A stretch of 64,000 nucleotides of DNA from Camelus ferus (lineage: Eukaryota). Made by a program: the position numbers and the translations under genes. The notes under the pieces are model-generated. The model did no database searches and had not been told where the DNA came from. It saw nothing but the letters and a program-made list of their open reading frames with translations. The stretch is taken from assembly GCF_009834535.1 (NCBI RefSeq), contig NC_045696.1:43712001-43776000 (forward strand). Direction: 5' to 3'. Positions 256 through 62,350 of this stretch are shown here, one piece after another (the first letter of the stretch is position 1; each line of letters opens with the position of its first letter).

Positions 256-559
256 TTAAGTACAATTGTACTAAGTGGAAAAGTTCTTCCAGGTTGACAG
301 ATTAGCAAAAGCAAAGTCCAGAAAAAAAAAAAAATACAGGATATGCTGAAAAAGGATAAATGGTTTAGTGAACCTGTACTAATGGGGACTGATTAGAATA
401 TAGTCAATTCTGATGAGAAATACCAGGTTATGGTCAAAATACTAAGAGATTTCATTGTCATGCTGATAAGTTCAGATATGGGAGTGTGTGTTAAACTGGG
501 AAGGCGAGGGAAGAGCATAATCAAAGGGTTGAATAGGACCTTCATTTGTATGAGTTTTA

Positions 560-981
560 TTTATTTTATTTTATTTTTTGAGAGTTATGTTTTATTTGGC
601 GGGAGGACAAGAGCTGGGATGACAGCCCCTCAGATTGCTCTGAGGGACTGCTCCAAAGAGGTAGGGGAGGAGCTAGGATATATAGGAGCTTTACAACAAA
701 GACCAGGTAGTTGGAACAATAAAAGATTACTTGTTATCTAAAGAAAACCAGGCATCTCAAGTTAAAGAATTTAGTGCTTTTCTATATATGGGAGGAAGCA
801 AACATTTGGGCTCATTGAATTCATTCCTCTGACAAGCATCTAGCTATCTAGGGCCAGTATCCTGTCCTTTCGTATTCTGAGTCTGCTCAGAGGGCACCAT
901 TGTGAGTGGCTGCAGAGGCTGGGGGATGGCAGCAACCACTGATGCCTTGGTTTCAGCATTCTTTGTTTACTGATAAACATG
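560..981 (-). mobile_element. ERV1-class LTR (U3-R only, cetartiodactyl MER41-like) retroposed with A-tail and TSD
   Basis: Minus strand begins TATCAGTAAACAAAGAATG at 975. TATA-like box at 678-684, AATAAA at 591-596, then an A-rich tail at 560-579. Identical flanks TGTATGAGTTTTA at 547-559 and 982-994. Family name from recall. Confidence 0.8.
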
Positions 982-2019
982 TGTATGAGTTTTAAAAAGT
1001 AACTCTCTTGGCAATGTGAAGTCTGAATTGAAGGGTAAAAAAATACACGATGGAGAACAATTTAGAGATTATTGCCACAAATCAGACAGGAGATGTTAAT
1101 GAGTGACCTAAAATAATGGAATTAAGATTAAAAAGAGTAGATAATGATTTTCATCAGAAAAATAAACAAAATGTTTTGTTTGTGAGAGTAGAGTGGGAGG
1201 GAGAGCAAGCAATCTGTATTGTTCACCTTATATTCATTTGTATTGATGACTACTATTTGCAATTCTGCTTTAATCAGAAATAGTTAACGGTAACTCTCAA
1301 GTTTTATAGATCAGCTCTTGCTATCAGAAAGTTTTTGTAAACCCTTGATTGTTTGGAGAAAAACAATTTTTTTCCCGTTTTTCACCCTTAGGAAAATATT
1401 CTTGAAAAATCACAACTGGTCTGTCTCTTCCATCTTAAGACACAAATGAGCCTTGCCCTCTTGGCTCATGGCTTGTTAGGGGTTATAAGGAAAAATTAAC
1501 AATGCTTTACCAGGTTATAGATGTAGTATGTAAAAATGCAACATTAAGGAGGGTACCCAGAAACTTATGAAATATAATTGATAATTCAGAATCCTGCATC
1601 AGCTCCAAAATGTTATACATGAAAGTTTACTTAATGACAGCTGCCTTCCTAACTAACTGGAGTTGGTTCTCTCAAGTCACTATTTTACATGAGAAACGAG
1701 TCTGTTTCAGGCATAGGAAATCTACTGTATACCATTATTAATTTCTATTAACCTAAAAGGGAAGAAATACGATCAAAGCAATTTTATGATAAATGAAGCC
1801 TAAAACACAAGCAAGCAAGACTGTTTCACTGTTCACCTGGTAACAATCAAGCTCACTAGGAAGTTTAATGTTACAAAGAATCAGCCATGGCTCATGAATA
1901 TTATTGGGTTTTTCTATGGCTACTAGACTTACTGATAAAATCTTTGAAAGAATTTCAAGTTAAAATCTGCAGCACTAAAGTGGAATGTCGTGGTCTCAAA
2001 TAAATCGTGGTATAAAAGT

Positions 2020-14480: not shown

Positions 14481-16828
14481 AAAGTAAACAGAGTATATAT
14501 ATGAAAACCAGCAACCTCAGCACAAACAAAATCAAAGCAACAAGTGGTTCTACTTTCCCACAAATAAGTCTAATTCCAAAGCAGTCTGGTTATGCTTAAT
14601 ATTTTTAAAATAAATACAACTTGCAAATATTTAAGAAACTTTAATGCAATGCTATGAAAGGTGAAATAAGGCAAATGCTATGAGTAAATATATATGAAAT
14701 ATAAATTTAAAGTTTTATTTATAATGGATATGGTTACAAGGAGACTTAGATAAGCTTAGTTCAATAGGCATAAATGACTATTCAATTTTAATTTTCCCCC
14801 AAATCAACTCAGCTAATATGTTTGCAGCATTTCACTCTAGCTCTGCATCCACAAGTTTATTTCATCTATCAACTTCTTTTTGGTGGATACAAGCATGCAC
14901 TGATTCATCTGTTTCTCAGCAGTTGTTAATGAGAAGTCTTTACAGAGGCCATGAGTAGTTATGGACTTTATTATTAGTAGAATCAAATAAATACTAAATA
15001 TTTTTCTATCTGCCACTGATCAAGAATAAAAAATCAGGGAACAGAAATATCACGATATAATTTCAGAGAGAATATTAAATATTTGGAAAAAGTTTTAAAA
15101 AGAGAGCTTTCATATTTTAGGAGAGAATCACAAATTGTACATGTATGTGAAATGGATTGAACTACTGGCAGGTGGCTATTAAATAAGAGCTCAAATTTTT
15201 ATATCCATAAGTCAGTATACATCAACATTTTCAACTGCCTATAAAGAAACAATACTCATATAATAGAACTCATCAATATTTGGTGGTAGATGTGTTCTTA
15301 TTTGTTTCATGTTAAGTCTTTCAGGTTTCAGATGAAGTTATTGAAAGCAGTTCCCAATATTAACCTTGTTCACACATAATTTATTTTTCCTCCCATGGAT
15401 TACAAGCTTAAAATAACCTCTCCTCAACAAAAATAAAGAGATCAAATTTTATTAACAGTGAGCTAATTTTCCATTCTCTATAGTAGTTATAAAGTCCTTC
15501 TCTAAATTAAGAAGAATTCAAAGTTCCTAATAAAAAAATATATTGTACATTATATATAAGAATTACTTTCAAGTAAAAGGGTTTTTATTTCAAGTAGGAA
15601 GAAGAATTAATTGATCTGTTATGGAAACAAATTACCTAAGTAAAATCTACTGTTAACTAAGCAAAACAAAAAATGTTTCTAATCCTATGTTCAGTTTCCT
15701 TTGCATTGACATTAATTGAGAGGAATATTTATTTTTCACATACTAAGGAAAAAGCTTCTATCTGTTATTGATAATTGTGAAAATTACCTTAAGTACTATT
15801 GGATGAATAAAGAAACAAAGTTTCATTTTCAATTTATTCCTTTAATTTAGAAAGTTCACACTGAAGAATAGTTATGCTCATTATAGCTGTTTCACTGTTT
15901 CATAACTTAGGAATTTAAAGTTCTAACTTAAGTTGCAAACTTCTCTGTTTAATTCAAAGATTTTAAAAATTCATCTTTCTTTTCTGGCTTTGATGTCTCT
16001 GACCACTAGCTTTGACTTTTTGCCTGTATGTTTCTCACTGCACACCCAGAATGGCAGATATCTTGAAGTATTAGGAATAAGTAAATGCTGTTAAAAGGAT
16101 TACTCTGGCTTAGAAATTCCTCCTTAGCAGCAATTTATTCCATCATAATTTGTGCAAATCTGTGAAATAAGTAGTGGCAGTGAGGTTGAACTTTAGACAA
16201 ACTTCACTCTTTCCCTTACCGGAAATTAGATTTTGAAAATGGAGTATTCTTAACAGGCTTATAGAATTTGTTACTTCTCTGTGGTCATGCAAATATCATA
16301 GGCAACATACATATACTCTCTCCTCTTTTCATTCGTTTTTTTTTTAAATAAAAAATTCTATTTAGAAGGGAAATTTTGGTCTAGTCTTCTACAGGAAATC
16401 TTAGGGGCAAGAAGTAAAGAAATTGATGATTGAAGTAAAAAAAAAAAAAAAAAATCAAATGCCCTCAATTTTAAAATAGAGCTTGGATAAAGCCAGTTGG
16501 TGACAGGCTATCATTTTCACCCACTGAATATTCATTGAAAGGTGATTATTCTGCAAACCTATAGGTTTGTTTGTTAACTATTAGAAAAGCTTCATGTTAG
16601 CTCCTGAATTTTCATTCTGTCATAATTTTGACTTTCTACTAGGTCTGCTCTAACCTGTTCTTCTCACTAACTCTTCACTAACCCAGTCAGATTCTAGTCA
16701 TTAATGGAGGAATTCTTAAATCATTCATCAAAATCTCTTAAAAAAAAAACCTTCACCCATTTATTACTGTTATATTTTAAAGCAATTCATAATTTAACAT
16801 TTATATTTCCTCACAAAAGCTAAAATAC

Positions 16829-16903
16829 TAGATAGATAGATACATACATACATACATACATACATAGATGCATAGATACATAGACAGACAGACAGACAGA
16901 CAG
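16829..16903. repeat. Compound tetranucleotide microsatellite (GATA)(CATA)(GACA)
   Basis: Direct inspection. Confidence 0.9.
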
Positions 16904-19900
16904 GTTCAGAAAAGTTTTGAACTATAGAAAAATTATTCTAAAAACTTATGTTCTTAGAAGTAAATTAGGTATTTGTGTAAGGTTTAGAACTCTAAATAGC
17001 ATTCAGTATATAAGAGGAATGTCTAATACAGATGAAGGTAAAATGAATATGGTATCCTTTATAGCTTTGTAAGTCTAGTGAAAAAGGGATCAAGAGAAAA
17101 GGAAGGGAAGTTGTCACCATTTTGAATTTTATTATTAAATGTAACAATGGGGTAGGTTTGAAACAGTGTTTTCATTCATGGTGACAGTTCTAGGGGCAGC
17201 CTGCTCTTGATAACTTGAATTAAATTATTTTTATTTCTTTCACATCCCATCTAAGAAAAAAAGTCTATTTTACTAAACCATTATTAATCACTTAATTATC
17301 ATTATGCATGACTTAGTTCAATCATACTTATACAAGTAAAACGATGTATTCATGTTTGAAAACTGTGCAAAATGAAAGGAAGGAATAGGGTGCTGGAGAC
17401 AATTTGGAATCAGATAAGGAGGTGAGAAGGGAAGGGTAAGAGGATAAATAAGTGAGATTTCTGCTGGAAAGTATATGAAGAGCTCCAATGTTCCCAAATT
17501 ATAATAGTTGAACCATTAAATGGAAGTTATCTGTCTATAATAATCATTGTAGAGGTAGTACATGTGCTGGCTAATTTATAGAATTTATAGCATTTTCTTT
17601 TAATTTATAGTATCTAATTAGATTGAGATATCCATTCTTCTTTCAATGGACTCTCAACATTTTCTTAAACATGACACCTGGTTCTGACTAATGTGCTATA
17701 TTGAATCTTTTCCAAGACACTTAATTTTACTTTTCTCTTTTGTAATTTTGTTTTACTATATTCCTTTTTTTAATTTGGTAATTGAAACACATTTTTGTTG
17801 GTAATTCCACATGCAGAAAATAAAGTCAAATTTATTGTAATAAATACTTAATGGTGCTTTCCATTTCTTCTCTTTTTCTAGGATAGGATTTTTTGGTTGG
17901 TATTATGTCCCTATGATAGCTGTTTATAGAAAATGTAGCCCCCATGAAATGTTTCAGATGGATGACTTTGCACTGTAAGATATCTCTCTATCCAAAGAAA
18001 CCATATATAATTTGTGGAATGATTTCCATAATATGAATAGTCCTCTGATTATAATTTAAATAAACTGATGGAAAGTAATTGTTTAAGGCTATAGCAATAC
18101 AAAGTTTATTATTTGGTGGGCTTAATTTTCAAAATATCATTGATTTTTAGCAGACTGGGCTTTCTAATTATGAGTCTTCCAAACAATTTACTTAGTTATG
18201 CATTGTTGTACTGGCAATCTAGTTTCAAAGAGAGGTATTCTATAATCAGTTACTTCCTTGATATGGCAAAACTATTTCATTTGGATAAACAAGAGAAAAC
18301 AAAGAGTCAGCAAAAAGGGTGATTTTTGACAATTAAGTATAATCTTTCATTTTCAATTAAAATATCACTGCTACCTTCATTTTACTAACTTGCATACTGT
18401 CTTATAGTTAACTTTAATTTTCTTCATATAGCCAAATAAAAATCAAATCAAATTTGGGTTTTTTTTGTATTATTTAACCTCTTCTTTAAAATCAATTTAA
18501 CTTTACAATTTATGCAATAACATTTCTTATAATGTCTTTAAAATATCCAGCATATGTATATATTGGCTAGAGTCATGGAATTATATTTTTTAATGATTTC
18601 AATATAATAGTTGTATATAGGATATTTTAAATTATTTTTTTAAAAAGAAAAAAAAGGGGGGGGGATTATTTAGTCCTACCCAGTCAGCAACAAAAGCAAT
18701 CAAATCATTTTTTTATCCAGTGAAAGATTAGACATTCATTACAAACTTAATGCATAGTCTAAGAATAGAACAGTAAGATCACTTATATGTAAAACTGAAT
18801 TGCTTCATAAGCTTCCATTTTTAATATGTGCCTTTATATACTAAAATTCCAATATCCACAAGAGATTGGATCTGAATACTTCAGAATTTTTCATAAGAAT
18901 ACAAGAAATTGAAAACTTCTAATTCTACTCTAGCAGGGAAAAAAGTATTGCAACACTGAAAATTAGTTTGTATAACTTTTATCTTTAGCTCAGTCTAAAA
19001 GATCACTATTTTATATGAAACATTATAATTTGTAAAATATTTTGCAAATATATAAAAAGTAGTTAGAATTCAGGAGAATCCTAAATCTGAGCGTTTGTTG
19101 GTTGATTCCAGCTGCATTATGCTTACATATTTCCAAGAAATATCAGAATACTGACTGTAGTACAATTATGATATGCCCTCAAAATTCAACACTAAAATAT
19201 ATCCAACAAAAGTCAAGATCCCACAATGACTGCATACATTGGGGGCATATGATTATGCCTGCCACACTGCAAGTGTTCCTTTTTTCAGGAATGGTCCCCC
19301 AAAACGTATTTCTCCAATATAAGAGATTATAAATGGAAAGAATAGAGGTATTAGTTCACTAGAAACAAAAGGCCATTTGAGCACATCAAATATTCAAATA
19401 AATATTTTTGAACAAAAATGATAGCACTGAAGAAATAGATAGCTAACTGATATAACTGATTTGGTTAAATATTCCATCAGGTGGACCTAGGTTTAATTTG
19501 CAAAACTACTGTCATCATCTGTGTGAACCAGAGTACCTTTTTCCTTTTTCTTTTATTTAATTTTTTGCCATTACATCAACTTTAAGTCAATATAGAACTT
19601 TTAGATCTCATATTATGGAGGTCCAGTAAAATGATTTATACTAGGAAACTTTTAAGTTCAGTTAGTCAGCTTTTTAAAAGAACAAAAAACAATCCTAAAA
19701 GAAAAAATTTGAATATTTGATTCTGCCTTTATGGGAAAGGAGAGGGTCATAAAGTTATTTGTGATAATTTTCAGTAAATCCTCTCTTATCTACAAAAATA
19801 ATGACCCAAAATGAGGTCATTGATAGGAAAGTTACAGATAGGATACTTATTTTTTTGGTCTGGTGCTTTGGCTTTTATTTTCATTTAAATACAAATATCT

Positions 19901-20899: not shown

Positions 20900-21910
20900 T
20901 GTAATCAATTTCATTCCTATTATTCATTGTTCTGGTCTATACAGAAGGCATCCAAACCCCTAAAAATTAAATTTCCCAGACTCCTCTGTCAGTTGAACTT
21001 TAGTTAGTATCAGCTACTAAGAAGAACTAATAGGAGTTATTTATTTTTATTTTGAAATAATTTTATTTTCACAGTAATTTGAGAAAGAACAGAGATGCAG
21101 TATACAGTTTCCCCCAATTGTTACACTTTATGGTATTTTAGTAGAATACCAAAACCAGTCACTGAAATTTCTAAGATGTACATATAGTTCTATTTCATTT
21201 TATCACATGTATGGTTATGTAACCACCACTACAATCAAGATACAAAACTATTTCATCACCACAAAAAACTCACTATTTTTATTCTTTCATAGTCACTCCC
21301 ATTCCTCCCCTTCTCCCCTTCACCTTCCCTAACTCCTGAGAAGCACTATGTTTTCCATATCTATCATTTTGTCCTTTCAAGAATGTTATCAGAATGAAAT
21401 CATACAGTATATGACCTTTTGAGACTTGTAAACTTTACTAAGCATAATGCCCTAGAGATCACTGCTTGGATGTTAGGAGGAAGGGTGGGCAGCAGACCAG
21501 TGAGTGGTGACTGACTTCACTGCCTTTGGTATTCCAGCAGCAGCAGCAGTGGGTGACTGCCAGCAGTCACTGGGGCCACAGGCTACAGAGGCTTTCAGCA
21601 GCACTGAAGGCAAAAGCAGTGAGTACCTGCAGGTCTCAGCAGCCTTTGGAGGGTCTGGTGTTGGCAGTTTCCAGCAGAGTCAAGGGTACATGTGTATCTG
21701 GGCTCTGGAAAATCTACCTCCCTTCCTTTGATTTTTCTAGCACTTGGGTATGGGAAATGTTTCCTAAAATTATCAATCTCTACTTACTTATCTCCCTTTT
21801 GCTCCTTCCACCCTACTAAAACCTTTGTAACTAGCTCCCAGTATTTAATATCTTCTGTATGAACTACCTATCATAATTTATGTTTTCCTAACTGGGACCT
21901 GACAGGCATC
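20900..21910 (+). mobile_element. ERVL LTR33-like solo LTR split by an L1 insertion
   Basis: 5' part 'aaaaattaaatttcccagactcc', GCA-rich middle, 3' part 'tttgtaactagctcccagtatttaata..gttttcctaactgggacctgac'. Confidence 0.6.
21040..21460 (-). mobile_element. L1MB/L1MC-type 3' end fragment
   Basis: T-rich tail followed by 'ttgaaataatttta', 'gtaaccaccactacaatcaagataca', 'gaaatcatacagtatatgaccttttgagac'. Confidence 0.75.
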
Positions 21911-23229
21911 ATCAAATAGCATGGATGTTAAAAAGCTAGCCATGTAGAGTACTGCAAAAACATACATGATAACATCAATTTTATTAACAATAATAATAAT
22001 AATAAAAGAGCTACTATTTACTGGGAATCTATTTTGTGCTAGGCATTTTGCATAATAGCTTCCTTTCAAAGAGTGTACACACGTAAGAGGCAAAAGAGTT
22101 GAGTAAGAAGAGGAAAGCTACACCAGCTTTGAACACAGTCTTTTTTCAATTGTATCAAAGCATTTTCTAAGTGTATTTGATAAATTAAAAATTAACATCA
22201 ATGCTCAGAGTCAACTGTTTTGAAGTTAATCTATTTCCCATCACAGCTCACTTAGGAGTCCAATGGCCATGCAACTATCAGGTAGTTAAGTTTATGTTTA
22301 AAAACTGGAACCAGAATATTTCCAGTGAAGTGTTCTGGGGCTGTAACCCACATTGCAAAATGCTGCCCTATCAAGTATTTCAGATACCAAGCCCAATTCG
22401 GTATCCTTTAACTTGTGAAATACTTTTGGCATTTCATTGTGTTTGCTGAAAAGTCGTCTCCCTCCAAGTGCACAGTTTAGTATTGCCAGTAGAGGCCTTG
22501 TGCAGCTGGCAACTTATCATTGTTTCCTGTACCCTTAGAATGACATCAGTGGCCTAGTTTAATAATTGATTACTTATTTGAAAGAAGATTTTTATTTGTT
22601 TTGATTGGCTACATTTTTTTAAAAGCTTTCTCTCAAAAAAAAAAAAGAAAACTACATAAAAATGCCTAAAAAAAGCAAGGTTTTTGTTCCTCAAGTTCCT
22701 TTGGGAAAAAAACGTAACTTGTACCTTAAACATTTAGTTACCTAAATCTTTTTAATCAGTGACAGTGTTAGTTACTTATTAATTTCTCCAGGAATTTTAA
22801 GTGATAACTCTAGTCTAAACTGAATTCTTCCTAATAACACATTATGTTTTATATTAATTATATATATTTGTATTACATTTTACTATTTTTACAAAAAATT
22901 GTTTTTGAAATTGGTCAATCCTTAATAATGTTGAGTATGTATATTTTACATGCCTGTCATATGTACAAACTTAAGAAATATTATGAATATATCAATATTT
23001 GTATACACAAGCTCTTGCACTAATAAAATACTCAACAAATTTGTTTCTATATGCATTTTAATGTTTACAACTACTAACTTAATAGTGAATTGTTAAAGCA
23101 TCCCCTCTTAAAATTGAGAACTATGCCACATCAGAACATACATATCCCTTTGATTATGAATTTTATATGGTTTGTGTGCCCTCTGCCTTGTTGACTACTG
23201 ATTAAACTGGATATTTCATCAACAACCAT

Positions 23230-23860
23230 TGTCTCAGTGCTAATCCCCAAGTGGAAACAAAGCACTGTATGTGACAAGCAAAGCCCCTACTCTTATAAAA
23301 CTTTTATTTAAGAAACATAAAGAAGAAAAAATATTAAATAAGAAAATAGTTCCTCACAATAATAATGTTATAAAGAGTGAAATCACAGAAATATCTCTGG
23401 AAGAATGATTGTAAAAAAGTCAAGAAAAAAATCCTCTTAAAAGACATGATAATTCAAGCTGAGAATGGAATTTTGTCAACAATGTCTTCAGATAATCAGA
23501 AGAAAGATTTTAGTCCATGACTAGCATGCAATCCAGAGGTGGAAATAAGCTTAACTTATTTGAAAGGGAATTTTTTTTCTTCAAATTTGAGTAAATAGTT
23601 TAAGTTTTATACCAAGAACACTAGGAAATAAATTTTTGGTTTTGAATTATGATATGAATGTTATGATGATGAATCTGAGTGCTGCTGTAACAAATGAAGT
23701 GGCAAAACATAAGCACTCCTTAGTTCCGGGTGAGAGGTAATAGTTGTTTAGGATGGTTTCAGTGGCTATAAAGAGGAACAGGCTTACTTACAATGAGTTC
23801 TGTTGGCCAAATTAAAAATGTTTGCTGATGAATCAGATGTGAGAGGTGTGGGACAGAAAA
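23230..23860 (-). mobile_element. L2 LINE remnant
   Basis: Antisense L2-like motifs 'aaagcccctactcttataaaactt', 'gttccgggtgagaggtaat', 'tttgctgatgaatcagatgtg'. Confidence 0.5.
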
Positions 23861-25869: not shown

Positions 25870-28800
25870 ATCTCTTAGATTTACAGGAAAAAAGGGTGAA
25901 GACAGTAATACTTAAGTTCCCCTGTTATTAACGTCTTACTTTAGTATGGTACTTTGCTACAATTAATGAACTGATCCTGATTAATCATGAATAAGTAATG
26001 TGCATATTTTATTAAGGTATCTTGAGTTTTTATAGTATTTTCTTTTTATCTGCCTCAGAGTCCCGTCCAGGATATGACACTGCACTTAGTTGTTATGTCC
26101 CCTTAGTTGTTGACCGTAACAATTTCTCAGACTTCTTATTTTTGATAATCCTCACAGTTTTTGAGGAGTGCTGTCCCTTAACTGGGATTTGTCTGATAGT
26201 TCTCTTATTAGATTTGGATTATGTGTTTTGAGGAAGTAGAGCACAAAGGGACAGTGCTGTTTTCATCATATCATATCAGGGGTATATGCTACCAATATGA
26301 CATCACTGTTGATGTTGACATTGATCATGTGTTTAGCAGACTTCTCTACTGTAAAGTTACTCTTTTTTCCCTCCCTCCATCTTTTACCCTTTGGAAGGAA
26401 ATTACTATACACAAACCATATTTAAGGAGTGGGGAGTTATGTTCCACCTCCTTGAGGATAGAGTATCTATATAAATTATTTGAAATTTTTGGGCATAGAT
26501 TAGTATTTTACCCATATATTTATTCAGTCATTTATTTACATCAATATGGACACATCTTTACTTTGTACTTTGACTTATAATCCAATATTACTATATCTAT
26601 TTTACCCTTCAAATTGTTTAAGATTTGGCCATTGGGAACTCTTACAGTTGACTACTGTTTACTGTATCTCTTTGATGTATTCACATCATAGTGCTTTGTT
26701 TTGTTTTAAACCTCTCTACTTTCTGGCACTGAAAGGTACTCAAGGCTAATACTGTGGATTTGTCTCTCAGTCGCAAAATCAGCCATTTCTTCAAGAGCTC
26801 TAGTTTCTTTAACTGAAAATCATATTATAAACCAAGATCCAGGTACCAGGTGTGCTCATTGTTACTGAGGCGTCATTTCTAGTCCCTCTCAAATGACAAA
26901 GCAAGGAATTATATGTGTAAATATGTGTTGATGTACATATCTCTAAAATTTCTGCATGTAATAATCTATATCTATATTAAGCTAAATATGAGTGAAAACA
27001 GATGTCTCTAACTCTCTCCAACTCTAAAACATTATAATGGATCATTCTATCTTCTTCCTGTGAACTTCCACTTCAACAACAAGAAACCTGGTCCCCATCA
27101 TCCACCATCTATTTATTTGATAGTTCAATTCCAGTATACATATATATTGGTATCAGAATTGTTGACCTGTGCACTCTGTGGGAAATAACTTTATCAAAAA
27201 GGGTACAGTACTTATGCACAATTACTTCTACTCTAGTCTTACAGACTCTGCTCATTTCCAAAATTACTTTAGGTCAGCACCATTTTTCCTCATGCCCCTC
27301 AGTAAGGATGTTTCATAAGTTTGTAATACAGTTAGATTATTTTGTTGTCACATTCTGCATTCCATCCAGAGATCTCATGACCTCCTAAATAATTTTTAAA
27401 AATTTATATACATTAAAGTTCAATTTTTGTGCTGTAAATTTAAATGGGTTTTGAGAAAGGCACTGCATTATATTACAGTATCAAAGTTTCAAAGCTCTAA
27501 AAATTCCCCTTTGCTTCACCTATCCAGCTCTTTCTCCAGCCTCCAGGAACCCCTCGCAACGTATTTTTTTACCTTTTCCAGATCGTCAAATAGTTGAAAT
27601 CATACAGTATGGAGCCTTTTCAGTCTAACTTTTTTCACTTAGCAATACATATTTAAGATTCATTCATGTCTTTTCATGGCTTTACAGCTCATTTATCTTT
27701 TTCACTGAATGACAGTCCAGTGTATGGACGTGTAACAGTCCATAACAGTCCATTCACCTATTGAAGGAAATCTTTCTTGTTTCCAGTTTTTGGCAATTAT
27801 GAATAAAATCACTATAAACATCTATGCGCAAGTTTTTGTATAGACATAATTTTCAATTCAATTGGTTAAATATCTAGGAGAGTGATTTCTGTACTTTATA
27901 TTAATACCATGCTTACTCTGCAAAAAACTGCCTTACTGTCTCCCAAAGTAATTATTCCAGTTTTCATTCCCATTAGCATTAAATGAAAGTTCACATTGTC
28001 CCACAATCTCACAGGTAATTAAACTGTCAGAATTTTGAATTTTAGCCATGTTACAGGTGTTGTAGTGGTATCTCACTGTTCTTTTAATTTGTAATTCCCT
28101 AATGACAAATTATGTAGAGCTTATTTTCAGTTCATATTTTTCATTTGTATTTTTCTTGGGTGAAATGTCTGTTTAGATATTTTCACTGTTTTTTAAATTT
28201 TTTATTATATAGTTTAAAATGTTCTTTTTATATTTTGAGTATAAGCCTTGTACCAGACATGTGATTTGCAAATATTTTCTCCCAGTTTGTGGCTTGTGTT
28301 TTGTTTTTATTTTGAACAATTCCTTCAAATGTATTTTTTGTATATATATTTTTAATTGAGGTATAAACAGTTTAGAAAGTTGTGTCAGTTTCTGGTGTAC
28401 AGCATAATGCCTCAGTCATATATGAACATACATGTATTTGTTTTCATATTCTTCTTCACCATATGTTACTACAAGATATTGAATACAGTTCCCTGTGTGA
28501 TACAATATGAACTTGTTGTTTATCTATTTTACATCTACTAATTAGAATCTACAAATCTTGAACTCCCAATTTATCCTTTCCCACCCCTTCCACAACTGGT
28601 AACCATAGGTTTGTTTTCTATGTCTATGAGTCTATTTATGTTTTGTAAATAAGTTTGTTTGTCTTTTTTTTTAGACTCCACATACGAGTGATATCATACA
28701 ATATTTTTCTTTCTCTTTCTTGCTTACTTCACTAAGAATGACAATCTCCAGGTCCATCCATGTTGCTGCAAATGGTATTATTTTATTCTTTTTCATGACA

Positions 28801-31800
28801 GGGTATTATTCCATTGTATAAATGTACCACAACTTATTTATCCAGTCATCTGTCGATGGACATTTAGATTGATTCCATGTCTTGGCTACTGTAAATAGTG
28901 CTGCTATGAATATAGGGGTGCATGAATCTTTTTGACTTAAGTTTCCCTCTGGATATATGCCCAGGAGTAGGATTGCTGGATCATATGGTAAGTCCATTTT
29001 TAGCTTTTGTAAGGAATCTCCATACTGTTTTCCATAATGGCTGCACCAAACTTCACTCTCACCAGCAGTGTAGGAGGGTTCCCTTTTCTCCACAGCCTCT
29101 CCAGTATTTATCATTTGTGGACTTTTTAATCATGGCCATTCTGACTGGTATGAGGAGATACCTCATTGTAGTTTGGATTTGCATTTCTCTGATAATTAGC
29201 AATATTGAGCATTTTTTCATGTGCCTATTGACCATTTGTATGTCTTCATTGGAGAATTGCTTGTTTAGGTTTCTGCCCATTTTTGGATTGGGTTGTTCAT
29301 TTTTTTATTGTTAAGCTGTATGAGCTGATTCTATATTCTGGAAATTAAGTCCTTCTCAGTCACATCTTTTGCAAATATTTTCCCCCATTCTGTAGGTTGT
29401 CATTTTGTTTTACTTATGGTTTCCTTTGCTGTGCAGAAGCTTATAAAATACTTGGGAATAAATCTGACCAATTAAGTGAAAGACTGCACAGAACTACAAT
29501 ACATTAAGTAAGGAAATTAAAGATGACTTAAAGAAATGGGAAGATATCCCATGTTCTTGGATTGGAAGAATCAGTATTGTTAAAATGGCCACACTCCCCA
29601 AAGCAATCTACAGATTCAGTGCAATCCCTATCAAATTACCCAAGACAGTTTCCACAGAACTAAAACAAATAATCCTAAAATTTATATGGAATCACAAAAG
29701 ACCCAGAATTGCCAAAGCAATACTGAAGAAAAGAACGAAGCTGGAGGAATAACCCTCCCAGACTTCAGACAATACTACAGAGCTACAGTAATCAAAACAG
29801 AATGGTATTGGTACAAAAACAGACATATGGATCAATGGAACAGAACAGAGAGCCCAGAAATTGACTTTTGGTCAACTAATGTTTGACAAAAGAGGCAAGA
29901 ACATACAATGGAGTAATGACAGTCTCTTCAGCAAATGGAGGTGGGATAACTGGACAGCTGCATGTAAATTAATGAAATTAGACCACTCCCTCACACTATA
30001 CACAAAAATAAACTCAAAATGGCTTAAAGCCTTAAAACATAAGACAAGACATTATAAACCTCTTAGAAGAAAACATAGGCAAAACATTATCTGATATGAA
30101 TCTTAGCAATTTTCTCCTAAGGTAGCCTACCCAGGCAATAGAAATAAAAGCAAAAATAAACAAATGTGACTTGTTATTGATTCTATTTACAGAGTCCTTC
30201 ACAGGCAAACTTTTTTTTTTTAACTTTAATAAAGCCCAAAATGTCTTTATGTCTTTCATTACCACCGTTTTGGGGTTTTATCTAAAAACTCATCACCAAA
30301 CCCAGTGTCTCCTAGACTTTTCTCCTAAGTTTTCTTCTGTAAGTTTTAAATTTTGTTCTATGATTCATTTTGAATTAATTTTTACAGCAGGTATAAATTC
30401 TGTGTTTCAGCTCTTCACATACAGTTGTTGAATTTTTCCAACATCATAGGTTTAAAATATCATTCTTTTTCCATTGAATTACCTTTGTTCCTTTGTCAAA
30501 ATGAGTTGATTACATCATATAGGCCTATTTCTGGACTTTCTATTAAGTTCTATTCATCTATATGTCTTTTTTTTCCCACTAGTATACAGTCTTGCTTATT
30601 GTAGATTTACAGTGGGTCTTGAAATTGGGTAGCGTTAGTCCTCCAAATTTGTTCTTCTTCAGTACCAGTATTCTAGATCTTTTGTTTTCCCTCATAAATT
30701 TTAGAATCTATTTATCATTATCAAGAATACAACACACTAGGATTTTGATTGAGCTCTCACTGAATATATTAAGTTCGGTAAGAATTGGCATCTCAACAAT
30801 CTTTGATTGATTCTTCCAATCCATGAACAGTTCTTCTGTATACCCTGTACATATTTTACTAAATCAATAGCTAAGTATTTAATTTTTAGTGCTATTTTAA
30901 TTTTCTTTTTTAAAAAATTTCAGATTGCAATTGTTCATTGATTCTAAATAGGAAAGCAACTGACTTTTCTATATTAACCATGTTTGCTGTGAACTTTTAT
31001 ACTTACTTTTTAGTTTCAAGTGATTTTCTGATTCTTTGGGATTTTATTCATAGAGAATCATGTCATCTGCCAACAGTAACAGTTTCATTTCTTCCTTCCC
31101 AATGTGTCTACTTTCTTATTTCCTTTGCTTGTCTTACTGCATTAGCTAGGGTTTCCATTACTATGTTGACTGGGAGTAGTAACAGAGGACACACTTCGTT
31201 CCCAATTTTAGTGGAAAATTCTCCAGCTTCTCACCATTAAGTATGCTATTAACTGTACAGTTTTTGTAGATGTTCTTTGTAAGCTGAGGGAGTTCTATTC
31301 TATTCCTTATTATCTGAGAGCTCTTATCATAAATGAGTAGTTACATTTTTGTCAAATGGTTTTATTTGTATCTATTGATGTAATCCTATGATAATTTTCT
31401 TCTTTGGCCTATTATGGGGGTTACACTGATTAACTTTCTTCTTTCCACACTTTTTACCATAGAGAGTAGGTCTTTGCAATGAAGAATTTCCTGTGTGTAT
31501 TTCTTCCCCTCCTTCTGACATAAGGGATAAATAGATCTTTCTTAGCTCTTCGTCTAAGACCCTAATGTGATTCCTTAAAACTCATGAACAGTGTAGGACC
31601 AATGCCTCCCGCTGCAAAGACAGTCATCTTCAGGAGTTTCTCATTCTCATTCCAGCAACTCATTAAAATAACCACTGAAGTACTTCTATCATTTCATAGC
31701 TTCAGCAGCTTCTGCTACAGGAGGTAAATCTTAGTTGTGACAACCATGAGTTGCTTGTCTCTCAAAATTTCAAAGTAGCTGTTTGCCCTATGATCTCTGG

Positions 31801-40025: not shown

Positions 40026-40188
40026 CAGGTAATATACTCATTTCAAATTATACAGTTTTTAGATCTTGACTGAACTTTCAGAAACTAAGATGAGGAAGGA
40101 AATATAATTAATTTAATTAAAGTACTACCTATGAGCTTCTAAGTGGAAAAAATGTAATGACAGCCATTTAAGAAATATTTCAAGGCAA

Positions 40189-40528
40189 AAAAATAAATAA
40201 ATAAAAGGACACTATGAACTCACCTACAAAACAGAAAAAGACTTTCAGACTTAGTAAACAATCTTATGGTTACTGTGGAAAGTGGGTGGGAGAGGATAAA
40301 TTTGGGAGTTTGATATTTACAAATGTTAGCCACTATATATAAAAATAGATTTTAAAAGAAGTTTCTTTTGTATAGCACAAGGAACTCTGCTGAATATCTT
40401 GTAATAACTTTTAATGGAAAAAATATGAAAATGAATGTATGTATGTATATGCAAGACTGGGACATTGTGCTGTACACCAGAAATTGATACATTGTCATTG
40501 ACTGTAATTCAGTAAAAGATTAAAAAAA
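40189..40528 (+). mobile_element. Young L1 3' UTR fragment with perfect 19-bp TSD
   Basis: TSD AAGAAATATTTCAAGGCAA at 40170-40188 and 40529-40547. Body 'tgaactcacctacaaaacagaaa..tgtatagcacaaggaac..gctgtacaccagaaattga'. Confidence 0.9.
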
Positions 40529-41364
40529 AAGAAATATTTCAAGGCAACAATATTTTATACTTGTCTATTGTCTGGTGATTTGCTGAAGGAAAAAGGCCAA
40601 GAGTAAATATATTGCTAGGGAATTTTTTGTAAATATTTGAAATTATAAAACAGAATACAAAATGGACCTCATAAATTTAAGAAAGAAAAATGAGGTGAAG
40701 GAAGCTGAGAAGAAAGAAAAGGAAAAGCAGACACTCACCTTACATGTAAATATAAAACCAGTGAAACTGAAGGAGTTATTAAAGACAATAGTGACCTAAA
40801 TCATGGCCCTGAAAAATAAAAATAAACATACTATCTTAATTTTCCTTTAGTAATTAAAGCAATTATTCTATCTAAAAGTATTACAGAAAAGAGATTGTTC
40901 TAGCCTAAAATTTCAAAAAATATTTGAAGGTCCATCTAACTAATATTTTCGTTGTTCATACCTATCAGCCCAATTACTTTCCTCTCAGAGAGAAAAGAAA
41001 GCTATAGGGAGAAATGTTTAGTGATTAATGTTGGAGTTTTCAGAGACCATTAGATGATATACTTTTCTGGCATCTTTTTGGAACCAACAGGAAAATAAAG
41101 TATCAACTTTAAAATTGCTCAATTTGGAATAGAAGACTAGATTTTCCTATCTGTGAACAGATGAGTCAAAAAAAGAGTTTAAAGGGTCTGCATAAATTAT
41201 GCTTGTCTCTGCCCAAACAAGCCACCTGTGAGGGGTAGCAGAGAGGAGCCTAGAGGCTTCCCTTCAGGGAAGTCTTCTTATGCAAACATTAGGCAAAGGC
41301 TTAAGGTTATCCCCAATAATTAAAAGCAAGAGATTTTATATCAAAAAGAAAAATATTCAAATGA

Positions 41365-51599: not shown

Positions 51600-53000
51600 T
51601 TTCTTTATTAGAAAAAAATAGGACCCTGACCTTCATTTTTCTCATTTCACATTTAATGTTTTCTTCTTCACCTAACCTATCAAACCTCTCTGAGAGAAAC
51701 AGATGTCTCCTCATCTCATCCCTCCTCCCTTCTTCCACACTCTTCTTCATCTTTGACTTGCACACATATAGTACCCAGCCATTCAGAGTATGGCTTCTCA
51801 CACCTCAGTAATCTCTTCTGCATGTGCAAAGGTCTAGTAATCATTTACATTTGCATACCTTGATAGATCATCAAAACTGACTTTGCACAAAAGATCCTTC
51901 ATCTTACCTGCTCCCTTTGTCAACTGGGCAAAACTAAATTATTCTTCTCATTAACCATTTATGATCTTATCTGAATATTATTTTTCCAGGAAGGTATACC
52001 TTTAACCTTAGAACAGTCTTTGGCCCTTCACACTGTTCTATATTCAATTAGTTATCAATTTAATTCAAGATTACTATTTTTCCCATCACATGATTACAGA
52101 CCCACCATCACTGCATCGCATTAAATTCTCATGATTTTATGAGCATTTGGTTTTAGTATATTGTAATTTCCTAACTGGTAGAACTAATCTCACACTCTTT
52201 AAGTTTCTAAATGTCTTTTACCACATATCTAGCTGCTTTAAGTGTCTTCATAACTATTTCACTTATCTGCTTATTTCTTACTGTTTCTTTTCTCCAGCCT
52301 GTATTATCTCTTGTCTGGCAATAAGGCCTTTCCATAACCTTATCTCTCAATCCATTTTTTCTAGTTTTATCTAACAATATTCCTTTATTTATATTCAACA
52401 TTTAAATTAAACCATGCTTAGATGTCAAGTGTTCTTTTCTGTATATTTCCTTTTGTCTTACTGACTCTTTAACTGAATAACTTAAACACCTACACATTCT
52501 ATAAAGCCCAAATTAAAGATTACTTCCTAAACAATCATTTTTTTTTATTTTTTTTTTTAATTGACGTATAGTCAGTTTACAATGTTGTGTCAAATTCTGG
52601 TGAACAGCACAATGCTTTAGTCATACATGAATATACATACTCGTTTTCATATTCTTTTTCACTGTAAGCTATTACAAGATATAGAATATATTTCCCTGTG
52701 CTATACAGTATAAACTTGTTTATCTGTTTTATATATACCAGTCAGTATCTGCAAATCTGTAGACTGCCTTGGGCAGTATGGCCATTTTAACAATATTGAT
52801 TCTTCCAATCCAAGAGCATGGGATATCTTTCCATTCCTTTAAGTCTTCTTTCTAAACAGTTATTCTTGAACAACCTAGTTTGTTTGTTTTGTTTTTTTCT
52901 GTCTTTTCCATCACTCACCTCTTCTTGTAGTTTTTATCACATACTATAAAAGATGTACTACGACTTATCTCTTATATGTTCTAGGCCTTATGATACTCCC
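51600..53000 (+). mobile_element. L2 remnant, interrupted at 52542-52847
   Basis: Pyrimidine-rich L2-like motifs 'catcaaaactgact', 'ttcctaactggt', 'aaggcctttccataacc', 'aaagcccaaattaaagattacttcct'. Confidence 0.5.
52542..52847 (-). mobile_element. Young L1 mini-insertion: ORF2 fragment fused to 3' UTR end
   Basis: Poly(T), then L1 3' end to ~52758, then ORF2 'tagactgccttgggcagtatggccattttaacaatattgattcttcc'. Degenerate TSD at 52523-52541 and 52848-52866. Confidence 0.85.
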
Positions 53001-54789: not shown

Positions 54790-56601
54790 AATTTGAAGAT
54801 GATACAATGAAATGGAAATGGAAAGATACCTCATGCTCTTGGATTGAAGACTTAGTACTGTTAAAATTACCATACTACTCAAAGCAATCTACAGATTTAA
54901 TGCAATCCCTATCAAAATACCCACGACATTTTTCATAAAATTAGAACAAATAATCTTAAAATTCATATGGAACCACAAAAGACCCAGAATTTCCAAAGCA
55001 ATCTTGAGAAAAAATAACAAAGCTTGAGGTATTACCCTCCTAGACTTCAGACTACAGTACAAAGCTACAATAATCAAAACACTGCCATGGTACTGGCACA
55101 AAAGAAAGACACACAGATGAATGGAACAGAACAGAGAGACCAGAAATAAAGCCACATGACTATGGTCAATTAATCTATGAAAAGTAGGGAAGAACATACA
55201 ATTTTTAAAAAGACAGTCTTTAATAAGTGATGCTGGGAAAACTGGACAGCTACATGTAAAACAATGAGATTAGCACATTCTTTCACATCATATACAAAAA
55301 TAAAGTCAAAATGGATTAAAGATCTAAATGTAAGACCGGAAACCATAAAACTCCTGGAAGAGAACATAGGCAGAACACTCTTTGACATAAACTGCAGCAA
55401 CATTTTTCTGGATAAGTCTCCTAAGGCAAAGGAAATAAAAGCAAAAATAAACAAATGGGATCTAATTAAACTTAAAAGCTTTAGCATAGCAAAGGAAACC
55501 ATCAACAAAATGAAAAGACAATCTATAGTATGGGGGAAAATATTTGCAAATGACATGACTAACAAGGGGTTAATATCCAAAATATATAAAAGGCTCATAC
55601 AACTCAATGTCAAAAAAAAAAAAAAAACAATCAAAAAATGAACAGAAGACCAGAGTAGACACTTTTCCAAAGAAGACACACTGATGGCCAACAGGCACAT
55701 GGAAGGATGCTCACCATCATAAATTATTAGATACATGAAAATCAAAACAGTAATGAGATAACACCTCACACCTGTCACAATGACTATCAATAAAAGTCAA
55801 AAAATAACAAATGTTTCAAAGAGTGTTGTGAAAAGAGAACCCTGGTACACTGGTGGTGGGAATGTAAACTGGAAAGGCACTATAAAGAACTGTATGGAGG
55901 TTCTTCAAAAAACTAAAAATAGAACTATCATATGACCCAGCAATTATACTCCTAGCTATATATCCAGAAAAAAAAAAAAAACCACTATTTTGAAAAGATA
56001 CATGCACCACAATGTTCACCATAGCACTGTTTACAATAGCTAAGATAAGGAAGCAACCCAAGTGTCCATCAACAGACAAATGGATAAGAAGTGGTATATA
56101 TATACCCAGAAGGTGGGCCCTGTGCCTACTCTGCAGTGGTGGTGGGTGAGGAGGAGGGTGGGCAGGGATACATAAAACACAGCATTAAAGGTAACTTCTA
56201 CCCTCTTAAAAAAACCAAGAAATATATATAGGAATATTGCTCAGCCATAAAAAAGAAGGCATTCTGCCATTTGTAGAACATACATGGACCTAGGGAATAT
56301 TATGCTTAGTGAAATAAGTCTCATATAGAAAGACAAAAACAATACATCATTTATATGTGGAATATAAAAAAGTGAACTTATACAGCAAAACAGAAACATT
56401 CTCACAGATACAGAAAACAAACTAGTGGTTACCACAGAGGAGCAAGAAAGAGGGAGGGGCACATTAGGGGTATGGGCTCAAGAGATACAAACTACTATGT
56501 ATAAAATAGATAAACAACAAGGATATATTGTATAGCACAGGGAATTATAGCCATTATCTTATAATAACTTTTAATGGAAGATAAGCTGTAAAAAAAAAAA
56601 A
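54790..56601 (+). mobile_element. Younger L1 (ORF2 C-terminal third plus 3' UTR), pseudogenised
   Basis: ORF 55264..55641 '[39 protein letters not shown]' is L1 ORF2p, with stops and frameshifts around it. Ends at an A-run at 56590-56601. Confidence 0.9.
56105..56221 (+). pseudogene. Short processed retrocopy of an unidentified transcript 3' end
   Basis: GC-rich non-L1 sequence with ATTAAA at 56184-56189 and an A-rich tail from 56208, flanked by ATATATATA at 56096-56104 and 56222-56230. Confidence 0.65.
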
Positions 56602-60789: not shown

Positions 60790-62350
60790 AGGGAGCAGTT
60801 TCTGGGGTGATGGAAATCTTTTATAACTTGATAGTAATTAGGGTTACATGATTATAATTTATTAAAAACTCAAGTCATCCACTTTAAGATTTATGCATTT
60901 GCATTTTCTACATGTAAATTTTACCTTGAAACTAACTGTAAACAAATATTGAAATCCAGTCAGCAGGTTTGCTTTTCTTGGTGCTACTAGTAATTCTGCA
61001 TATATTGTAATTACATTAAAGACTTGAGTCAATTAATGAATGCATTGATGATCTGGGAGCCAGGTTTCTCATTTTGGGAAAACTAAGTCGAAAAAAAATG
61101 AAAGGGAGAAGAACAGAGAGCACTTTGTGATTTTTCATTATATTAGGAGGAAGGAGGGTTAAGAAAAAGAGAGGAAAAAGGAGGAGGGTTAAGAAAAAGA
61201 GAGGAAAAAGGAGAAGGGAGAGAAAATGAACTCCAAATACAAGTAATAACAATCTACAATATCTGTATTTCTTAGCTGTGTCCAAAGAGAGTACCCTGAA
61301 GCAATGATACTCCAATGGCAAAGACTTCTAGCGCTCAGATCTTCATATCAAAATCTCATTTCCCACTTAAGGAATCAATACTCCTTAGAGTAAAGGCTAA
61401 ATCCAATACTGAGGCAAGGAAAGTACAAGATGATCCTGGAATATTTTAATCTAATTGTGCCTAAAAATGCTCAAAGAATGCTCAAAGAATGACAGGGACT
61501 TATCTAAAGGAAATAGTTGCTGACATGAAGGAGTTCTTACAGGTGGAATTTGGAAAAATTTGAGTATCAAAATTAAGGTACTAAGGGATTATAACACATG
61601 AAATAACAAAGGACAATATGAATCCATACTAGTATTAATAAATTAAGGAATAAATAAATAAATGAACTAGAAGGGAAAATCCTTCTTTACCTTTGAATGG
61701 CAACTTAAAATATAGATGAAATGAAGTTAGAAAATCATCCAGTGATACTAAAATTAATGATAATTTAATGAAAAAAAGATTTTACATGATTTCAACGAAT
61801 TTCACCCCCAAATAGTTATCAGTTACAAGAGGAAAAATAGAAAATTTGCATTGGAGAAAACTGAGGGACACTATCTTAACAAAGTGATCTCATTTGACAT
61901 CAACAACACTGAGAATAATACAATAGCATGTCCATGATATTCCTCCTTAAAGTTCAAAATTTGAATCAAATCCTGAGAAAACATCCAACAAACATAAAAC
62001 GTAGGACATCCTACTTCTCAAAAACATCCAGGTTATTAAATATCAAGATTATTAAAAAAAAAAAAAGACTGAGAAACTCTGCCAAACTTTAAGTACTAAA
62101 GAAATATAGCAACTAAACACAACGAGTAATCCTCTACTGGATCCTGGATCAGGGAAAGAACAAAAGCTTTAAAAAAATTAGGTACAAACTGTGGATAACA
62201 TTTGATCAATATCAAATTTTTGACTTTGATAATTGCACTGTGGTTTTTTAAAACAATGCCCTTGTCCTTAGTTTTAAGGGAGTGCACACTATAGTACTTA
62301 GGTGCAGGAGGCATGCTGTAGTCAAGATAGTCTCCAATGTAAGATTTTTT
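60790..62350 (+). mobile_element. L1MC3/4-like 3' end
   Basis: 'ttctggggtgatggaaat', 'actgtaaacaaatattgaa', 'ggatcctggatcag', 'ttgataattgcactgtggtt'. Confidence 0.7.
61152..61211. repeat. Perfect 30-bp tandem duplication
   Basis: AGGAGGGTTAAGAAAAAGAGAGGAAAAAGG occurs twice in tandem. Confidence 0.95.

What the first reader, a model, noticed from the sequence alone, without database searches (positions are those of the whole stretch)
547..994. ERV LTR mobilised as a polyadenylated RNA by L1 (LTR 'processed pseudogene')
Seen: on the minus strand the LTR runs from its 5' edge (975) through a TATA-like box (678-684) to AATAAA (591-596). It stops 11 nt later and switches to an A-rich tail (560-579). 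A perfect 13-bp duplication TGTATGAGTTTTA flanks it, in a TT/AAAA context on the minus strand. Established: retroviral integration leaves 4-6 bp TSDs and TG...CA ends, whereas L1 target-primed reverse transcription leaves long TSDs and A-tails, as in HERV-W processed pseudogenes. Inference: U3 is present and U5 absent, so the template RNA read through the whole U3. The 6 nt upstream (CATGTT) are not a polypurine tract, which favours a solo LTR transcribed from outside, or an orphan 3' transduction. The copy starts almost exactly at the LTR edge. This raises the possibility of a recurrent, SINE-like LTR-derived retroposon family in camelids that would spread promoter modules without a provirus.
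Basis: partly seen in the sequence, partly recalled or inferred. Interest (0 to 1): 0.7.

Follow-up and report, generated by a model that had tools for sequence, protein, structure and literature searches.

The report
L1-copied fragment of a retroviral LTR
This is a real but probably one-off fossil: the tail end of an endogenous-retrovirus RNA was copied into a new site by the L1 jumping-gene machinery, as is well known for human HERV-W, and nothing seen here shows a new family of such elements.

Summary
The anatomy is confirmed: exact 13-bp duplication (547-559, 982-994), TTTTT/AAAA target, AATAAA, 11 nt, then a 20-nt A-rich tail. Laid contigs show the 400-bp body belongs to a very high-copy repeat family and that the upstream junction is identical in two organisms. 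An L1-made copy of a polyadenylated, LTR-terminated RNA is well supported (about 0.9).

Family cover stops at about 973-975, the copy has no TG start there, related contigs run on upstream with shared sequence, and no pile of unique-flank contigs ends at 975-981. The copy is therefore most likely cut inside U3, not at the LTR edge. The missing polypurine tract then says nothing, and a 5'-truncated HERV-W-type processed copy of proviral RNA is the simplest source; read-through of a solo LTR stays possible.

The SINE-like family idea is untested: no call showed the 3' ends of other copies, so U5 loss is also inferred, not shown. It is unlikely on mechanism, because U3 lies outside the copy's own transcript. 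Verdict: new member of a known kind, interest 0.3.

The parts
982..994 (-). Target-site duplication, upstream copy (12 bp 982-993 plus one shared T); preceded on the minus strand by a T run, giving TTTTT/AAAA
   Evidence: Exact repeat; junction 947-1150 covered with 0 differences by single contigs of X1, X3 and (946-1150) X15
976..981 (-). Six extra bases at the 5' junction; untemplated or scrambled family bases, origin unresolved
   Evidence: Sequence; family cover ends about 973-975
655..975 (-). U3-like part of a high-copy LTR-type repeat, probably cut short at its 5' end (U3/R border inferred from the TATA box, plus or minus 5 nt)
   Evidence: Summed depth about 1e5 over 634-867 against about 10 on the unique flank; G+C 0.445 against 0.335 in flanks
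678..684 (-). TATA-like box
   Evidence: Sequence; function not tested
580..654 (-). R-like part, about 75 nt, ending at the inferred cleavage site (C580/A579); minority R type of the family
   Evidence: Family cover continues to 585 at 76-87% of the depth at 610; 22-47 contigs per run (X1, X3, X15) leave the window sequence at 621
591..596 (-). AATAAA polyadenylation signal, 11 nt before the tail
   Evidence: lies inside family-covered sequence
560..579 (-). A-rich tail, 20 nt, 85% A, decayed to A3-6T units
547..559 (-). Target-site duplication, downstream copy, directly after the tail

Best explanation
A single, dead, 5'-truncated processed copy of an endogenous-retrovirus transcript. An RNA that began upstream of U3, most simply at the 5' LTR of a provirus, was cleaved and polyadenylated 11-12 nt after the AATAAA in its 3' LTR. 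L1 ORF2p nicked this locus at TTTTT/AAAA, primed reverse transcription on the tail, copied about 395 nt, stopped inside U3 and joined with six extra bases, leaving a 12-13 bp duplication. Shown: duplication, target motif, tail position, high-copy family, junction shared by two organisms. Strongly inferred: L1 mechanism (about 0.9 summed over this and the first two rivals) and truncation inside U3. Inferred only: loss of U5, LTR identity and class of the family (anatomy plus recall), and the proviral source.
For: All three HERV-W insertion marks are met (definition in PMC5016936 passages). Family cover ends about 973-975 with no TG start, related contigs run on upstream, and no best-supported loose-end row lies at 975-981 although this locus's own unique contig enters the element by 29 nt, as other loci's contigs would if their edge were there. 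Truncation at this length is ordinary here: a 340-bp L1-type 3' fragment with a 19-bp duplication lies at 40189-40528. A truncated copy would stop in any given 50-nt stretch at this distance with chance 2.5-4.5% under simple assumed length models. Camel genomes hold over 1,100 two-LTR ERV1 elements, and alpaca has large clusters of short non-coding ERV1 elements, so proviral RNAs were available (PMC8605555 section 14).
Against: No internal proviral sequence is in the copy, so a proviral source is not shown. Solo LTRs outnumber proviruses in the groups read about (3.2:1 for HERV-W, PMC3031232; about 7:1 for HML8, PMC10194239), which favours the first rival. The upstream run-on rests on 4 contigs of one run; 804 of 828 loose-end rows were not shown; depth tapers at repeat edges, so the 2-3 position figure is a lower bound. 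The tail and its edges were skipped as a simple repeat, so the family's own 3' end was never seen. No empty site was seen. A review calls HERV-W the sole human group specifically mobilised by L1 (PMC5537654), so such copies are not the rule.
Confidence: 0.55

Rival explanations
1. Same L1 mechanism, but the template was a host transcript or an L1 3' read-through (orphan transduction) that ran into a sense-oriented solo LTR and used its poly(A) signal; one-off event.
For: All insertion marks fit equally. The family is very abundant (summed depth ratio about 1,300-1,500 for this R type and up to about 15,000-17,500 at the peak; order of magnitude only, the tool warns this is no copy number), and most copies of such families are solo LTRs. 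L1 3' transductions, mostly without a traceable parent, are documented in dogs (PMC13141329 passages).
Against: No host or L1 sequence is in the copy.
Confidence: 0.28
2. One member of a recurrent, SINE-like family of A-tailed U3-R copies with a common 5' start, made from a master locus.
For: The copy is nearly LTR-length and belongs to a minority R type of the family (depth at 610 is about a tenth of the peak), which could be a separate expansion. No call excluded it.
Against: No second A-tailed copy was seen: none in the window, none among earlier notes. If many copies began at 975-981, their unique flanks should have given a top loose-end row there; none is among the 24 shown. U3 is an external Pol II promoter: a copy's own RNA would hold only the roughly 75-nt R part, so daughters could not re-make U3-R RNA without an upstream promoter (established LTR layout, PMC11359688 passage; inference).
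Confidence: 0.08
3. An ordinary integrase-made solo LTR whose family ends in an A-rich tract, or a DNA-level insertion, with the long duplication arising otherwise.
For: The family's 3' end was not seen. A forced reading TG(979)...CA with a 6-bp duplication carrying one mismatch can be written from the sequence.
Against: That reading leaves nine further duplicated bases and the TTTTT/AAAA target unexplained; retroviral duplications are 4-6 bp (PMC6407205 passage); family cover does not reach 979; the tail starts at the distance from AATAAA expected for cleavage.
Confidence: 0.06

Closest known systems
HERV-W (HERV17/LTR17) processed pseudogenes (Pavlicek 2002, not held; described in PMC5016936 and PMC5537654, passages read)
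   Same: 3' end at the R/U5 border with a poly(A) tail, TT/AAAA target, 5-15 bp duplication, L1 mechanism
   Different: Non-primate genome and another LTR family; only U3-R is present, with no internal genes and no R-U5 5' LTR; frequency unknown, whereas 135 of 213 HERV-W elements are processed copies
5'-truncated L1 insertions and orphan 3' transductions
   Same: Tail, long duplication, endonuclease target, truncation at a few hundred bases, extra bases at the 5' junction (the last from recall)
   Different: The copied sequence is LTR, not L1; no L1 sequence is attached
SINE-R part of hominoid SVA (recalled, no paper read)
   Same: ERV-derived 3' LTR cut at the poly(A) site and moved by L1
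   Different: SVA is a composite, high-copy family with its own 5' modules; here one copy with none
Solo LTRs made by LTR-LTR recombination
   Same: LTR sequence without internal genes
   Different: Solo LTRs keep U3-R-U5, TG...CA ends and 4-6 bp duplications; none of these is seen here
Artiodactyl ERV1-type LTRs, possibly the ALTR2 group (name and resemblance recalled)
   Same: Recalled resemblance in sequence and layout; the names ALTR2B and ALTR2C occur in a cattle paper (PMC9639328, search listing only)
   Different: Assignment not tested: no repeat library was available; my recall is that related LTRs have about 25 more bases upstream and a short U5, neither shown by a call

Membership tests
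L1-made retrocopy (target-primed reverse transcription) | Target-site duplication of 5-15 bp or more | tested here: met
   12-13 bp exact
L1-made retrocopy (target-primed reverse transcription) | TT/AAAA endonuclease target | tested here: met
   TTTTT/AAAA on the minus strand
L1-made retrocopy (target-primed reverse transcription) | A-tail between poly(A) signal and downstream duplication | tested here: met
   AATAAA, 11 nt, 20-nt tail with 17 A
L1-made retrocopy (target-primed reverse transcription) | Empty orthologous site with one copy of the duplication | tested here: inconclusive
   No joint across the element among the 15 joint rows shown of 58; the two DNA runs carry the filled upstream junction; no outgroup species was available
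HERV-W-type processed ERV pseudogene | 3' LTR reduced to U3-R (U5 missing) | tested here: inconclusive
   Layout fits, but the family's sequence beyond 585 was not shown
HERV-W-type processed ERV pseudogene | Colinear with proviral RNA: internal sequence or R-U5 5' LTR | not testable with these tools
   The copy ends inside U3, so these parts are absent whatever the source
Solo LTR (integrase product) | TG...CA ends with a 4-6 bp duplication | tested here: not met
   Starts TA at 975, ends in an A tail, duplication 12-13 bp
LTR of a multi-copy ERV family | High-copy dispersed repeat with TATA box and poly(A) signal in LTR order | tested here: met
   3,680 and 4,134 contigs laid in X1 and X3, depth about 1e5 against about 10; TATA 82 nt before AATAAA
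LTR of a multi-copy ERV family | Match to a named LTR entry or to the ends of a provirus | not testable with these tools
   No repeat library or host genome held; motif searches of papers and supplements empty
SINE-like retroposon family | Many independent copies with tails and long duplications | not testable with these tools
   3' ends of other copies not shown; no true family copy among 19 loci fetched
SINE-like retroposon family | Common 5' start | tested here: not met
   No best-supported loose-end row at 975-981 and no place where many molecules end (tables 6 and 7; 24 of 828 rows shown)
SINE-like retroposon family | Promoter inside the transcript | not tested
   LTR layout puts the promoter in U3, upstream of its own start site; no search for Pol III boxes was run

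The most novel reading that the evidence does not exclude
This camelid LTR group is a second HERV-W: its RNAs were mobilised by L1 many times, so a sizeable share of what is annotated as solo LTRs of this R type are really A-tailed U3-R retrocopies that scattered near-complete U3 promoters without integrase. The stricter form, a SINE-like family with one master and a fixed start, is the smaller part of this (about 0.08).
Probability: 0.2. Interest if true: 0.6.

Novelty: new member of a known kind. Interest (0 to 1): 0.3.

Why it matters
As one event it is a clean non-primate example of L1 acting on retroviral RNA, and a warning that some 'solo LTRs' in repeat annotations are retrocopies that never were proviruses. 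It would matter more if frequent: why HERV-W RNA is favoured by L1 is stated as open (PMC5537654), and a second, independent group would make that question comparable. A simple census of 3' ends in camelid assemblies decides this.

Tried and rejected
No whole genome is held, so the planned census could not be run. Self-comparison of the window found no second copy. Motif scans for family copies: viral contigs 0, 0, 13 and 0 loci, metagenome contigs 6 loci, prokaryote genomes 0 and 0; all 19 loci match only over the 17-25 bases of the motif and are chance hits. Plasmid and phage collections: no match. Rfam: 0 matches in the window. Host gene: 149 of 548 open frames of 40 aa or more were scanned against Pfam, one sub-threshold hit, rejected; the host context is unknown. 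The left flank had no cover in X1, X3 and X16; the tool says holes prove nothing, so this is not used. RNA run X15 covers both flanks but may hold DNA, so it is not taken as evidence of transcription. Paper searches for a report in camelids or for LTR-only retrocopy families found only HERV-W-type precedent; may have failed on wording; name and motif searches gave nothing usable. Supplements: none readable for PMC8605555, no motif hit in PMC11598996 or PMC6501411; a camel repeat library in unseen supplements could settle both ends. Rejected readings: LTR start at the TG at 979 with a 6-bp duplication; the polypurine-tract argument.

Full report
Observation. The structure is real. The 13-mer occurs exactly twice in the 64-kb window, at 547 and 982, and is the only exact repeat of 7 or more bases between the two junction regions. 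On the minus strand the insert reads: duplication, six extra bases (981-976), about 395 bases at 44.5% G+C against 33.5% in the flanks, a TATA-like box (684-678), AATAAA (596-591), 11 nt, a 20-nt tail with 17 A (579-560), duplication. The target is TTTTT/AAAA; the true duplication is probably 12 bp, the 13th base being a T that target and tail share. None of 58,575 window positions had its 12-mer recur in a comparable stretch, and the analytic chance is about 6e-6.

What the body is. No host genome is held, and scans of viral, metagenome, prokaryote, plasmid and phage collections gave only chance motif hits. Sequencing runs did help: 14 runs of about 2.0 billion letters, from organisms coded A and B, hold 0.91-0.92 of the words of 1-2000. 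Four of the 24 runs were laid on 400-1150 at 80% likeness. In the two DNA runs 3,680 and 4,134 contigs lay on the stretch; summed depth is about 1e5 over 634-867 against about 10 on the unique right flank. The tool warns that this is no copy number, but it places the family in the thousands. TATA box, poly(A) signal and their spacing fit an LTR (layout as in PMC11359688, passages). That it is an artiodactyl ERV1-type LTR, perhaps of the ALTR2 group, is my recall and was not tested. The upstream junction (947-1150) is covered without a difference by one contig each in A and B, so the insertion is shared by them. At 14 positions among the 40 rows shown of 108, most of the laid depth in X1 differs from the window, at 6 of them by 90% or more: the copy is not very young. 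Its R part is a minority type: 22-47 contigs per run leave the window sequence at 621 in X1, X3 and X15, and depth at 610 is about a tenth of the peak.

The 5' end is not the LTR edge. Four things point one way. The element starts TA at 975, not TG. Family depth in the bin 972-997 is 0.083-0.10 of the bin before, equal to 2-3 positions, against 0.31 if cover ran to the TG at 979; depth tapers at repeat edges, so this alone is weak. Four X3 contigs run on behind 973 for a median of 52 letters with 0.79 agreement, where unrelated 30-mers give 0.55 on average and at most 0.67 in 20,000 draws (my reading of the tool's agreement measure is assumed). Last, this locus's own unique contig enters the element by 29 nt; if many other loci had their edge at 975-981, their contigs would do the same and form a top loose-end row, but none is among the 24 best-supported rows shown of 828, and the tool lists no place where many molecules end. 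My recall that related LTRs carry about 25 more bases upstream agrees but comes from no call. So the copy is most likely 5'-truncated inside U3. The six extra bases may be untemplated or scrambled family bases; this is unresolved.

The 3' end. Family cover continues through AATAAA to 585 at 76-87% of the depth at 610, so the signal is family sequence. The tail and its edges were skipped as a simple repeat, so I never saw what other copies carry beyond 585. That U5 is missing, and that the tail is not the family's own end, is therefore inferred from the 11-nt spacing, the CA at the switch, the long duplication and the L1 target; no census was made and no empty site was seen.

Mechanism. It was polyadenylated at the LTR signal, taken up by L1 ORF2p, primed at the T-rich nick and copied for about 395 nt. 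Truncation at this length is ordinary: a 340-bp fragment with a short A tail and a 19-bp duplication lies at 40189-40528 and matches other L1-like pieces of the window at about 74% (L1 identity recalled from the ORF2-like frame at 28806-29129, with no Pfam hit). Under assumed exponential lengths a truncated copy stops in a given 50-nt stretch at this distance 2.5-4.5% of the time, so stopping near the LTR edge needs no special cause. I put the L1 step at about 0.9 and split the source as provirus 0.55, solo-LTR read-through or orphan transduction 0.28, master-locus family 0.08; an integrase or DNA-level origin gets 0.06. Proviral templates existed: 1,142-1,584 two-LTR ERV1 elements are counted in the three camel species and 2,455 in alpaca, with clusters of short non-coding ones in alpaca (PMC8605555, passages and section 14). 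Against this, solo LTRs outnumber proviruses in the human groups read about (PMC3031232 and PMC10194239, passages), and nothing in the copy names its source.

The family idea. It was not testable at the 3' end and is not excluded. It is weakened by the lack of a common start at 975-981, by the absence of any second copy in the window or in earlier notes, and by mechanism: U3 is left out of the copy's own transcript, so copies cannot propagate themselves and only a master with an upstream promoter could feed a family. Whether the copied U3 acts as a promoter here is unknown; no coding exon was found in 149 of 548 frames scanned.

Comparison with what is known. HERV-W processed pseudogenes are defined by a U3-R 3' LTR, an R-U5 5' LTR, a poly(A) tail, TT/AAAA and a 5-15 bp duplication, and make up 135 of 213 elements (PMC5016936, passages). 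This insert works like their 3' end and meets the three insertion marks; the LTR-structure marks are inconclusive or untestable, so I file it as an L1 retrocopy of LTR-terminated RNA, HERV-W-like, not as a proven processed provirus. It fails the solo-LTR test (4-6 bp duplication; PMC6407205, passages). A review calls HERV-W the sole human group specifically mobilised by L1 and the reasons unresolved (PMC5537654, passages). Pavlicek 2002 was not held and is known to me through those papers. PMC13141329, PMC8219666 and PMC6675863 were seen as passages, PMC11598996 and PMC6501411 only by a motif search of supplements, PMC9639328 only as a listing. Seven topic searches found no report of such copies in camelids; the library lacks most subscription journals and repeat-database notes, so this is weak evidence of novelty.

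Verdict. Observation partly confirmed, interpretation partly supported. A new member of a known kind; interest 0.3. The boldest reading not excluded, a second HERV-W-like group with many tailed U3-R copies in camelids, has probability about 0.2 and would deserve 0.6.

Noticed in passing
window 40170-40547 (+): A 340-bp 5'-truncated L1-type 3' fragment with a short A tail and a perfect 19-bp target duplication (40170-40188, 40529-40547); about 74% like other L1-type pieces at 28381-28673 and 52539-52737.
   Followed up: partly
window 28816-30169: L1-type ORF2 3' sequence in two opposite orientations meeting near 29446-29533 (self-comparison with 54815-56105), the pattern of a 5'-inverted (twin-primed) L1 insertion.
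   Followed up: no
window 52539-52851: Short L1-type piece that also switches orientation at about 52754 relative to 28334-29616; possibly a second inverted insertion.
   Followed up: no
window 920-945: Family depth drops five- to tenfold here and many contigs run on behind 923; one X16 contig has 23 gap letters in this stretch. The window copy probably lacks about 20 bases that most relatives have.
   Followed up: partly
window 21476-21730: G+C-rich (53-58%) patch with short CAG-type repeats and open frames on both strands in otherwise 33% G+C DNA; no Pfam hit.
   Followed up: partly
window 22572-23566 (-): 13-bp direct repeat 982 bp apart next to an A-rich tract; possibly another retro-insertion with a duplication, not examined.
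   Followed up: no
window 61152-61218: Near-perfect 30-bp tandem duplication (2.2 copies, 97% match).
   Followed up: no
window 400-506 and 946-1150, run X15: An RNA-seq run labelled reproductive system holds contigs on both flanks of the element and thousands-deep family cover; could be intronic RNA or DNA carry-over.
   Followed up: no
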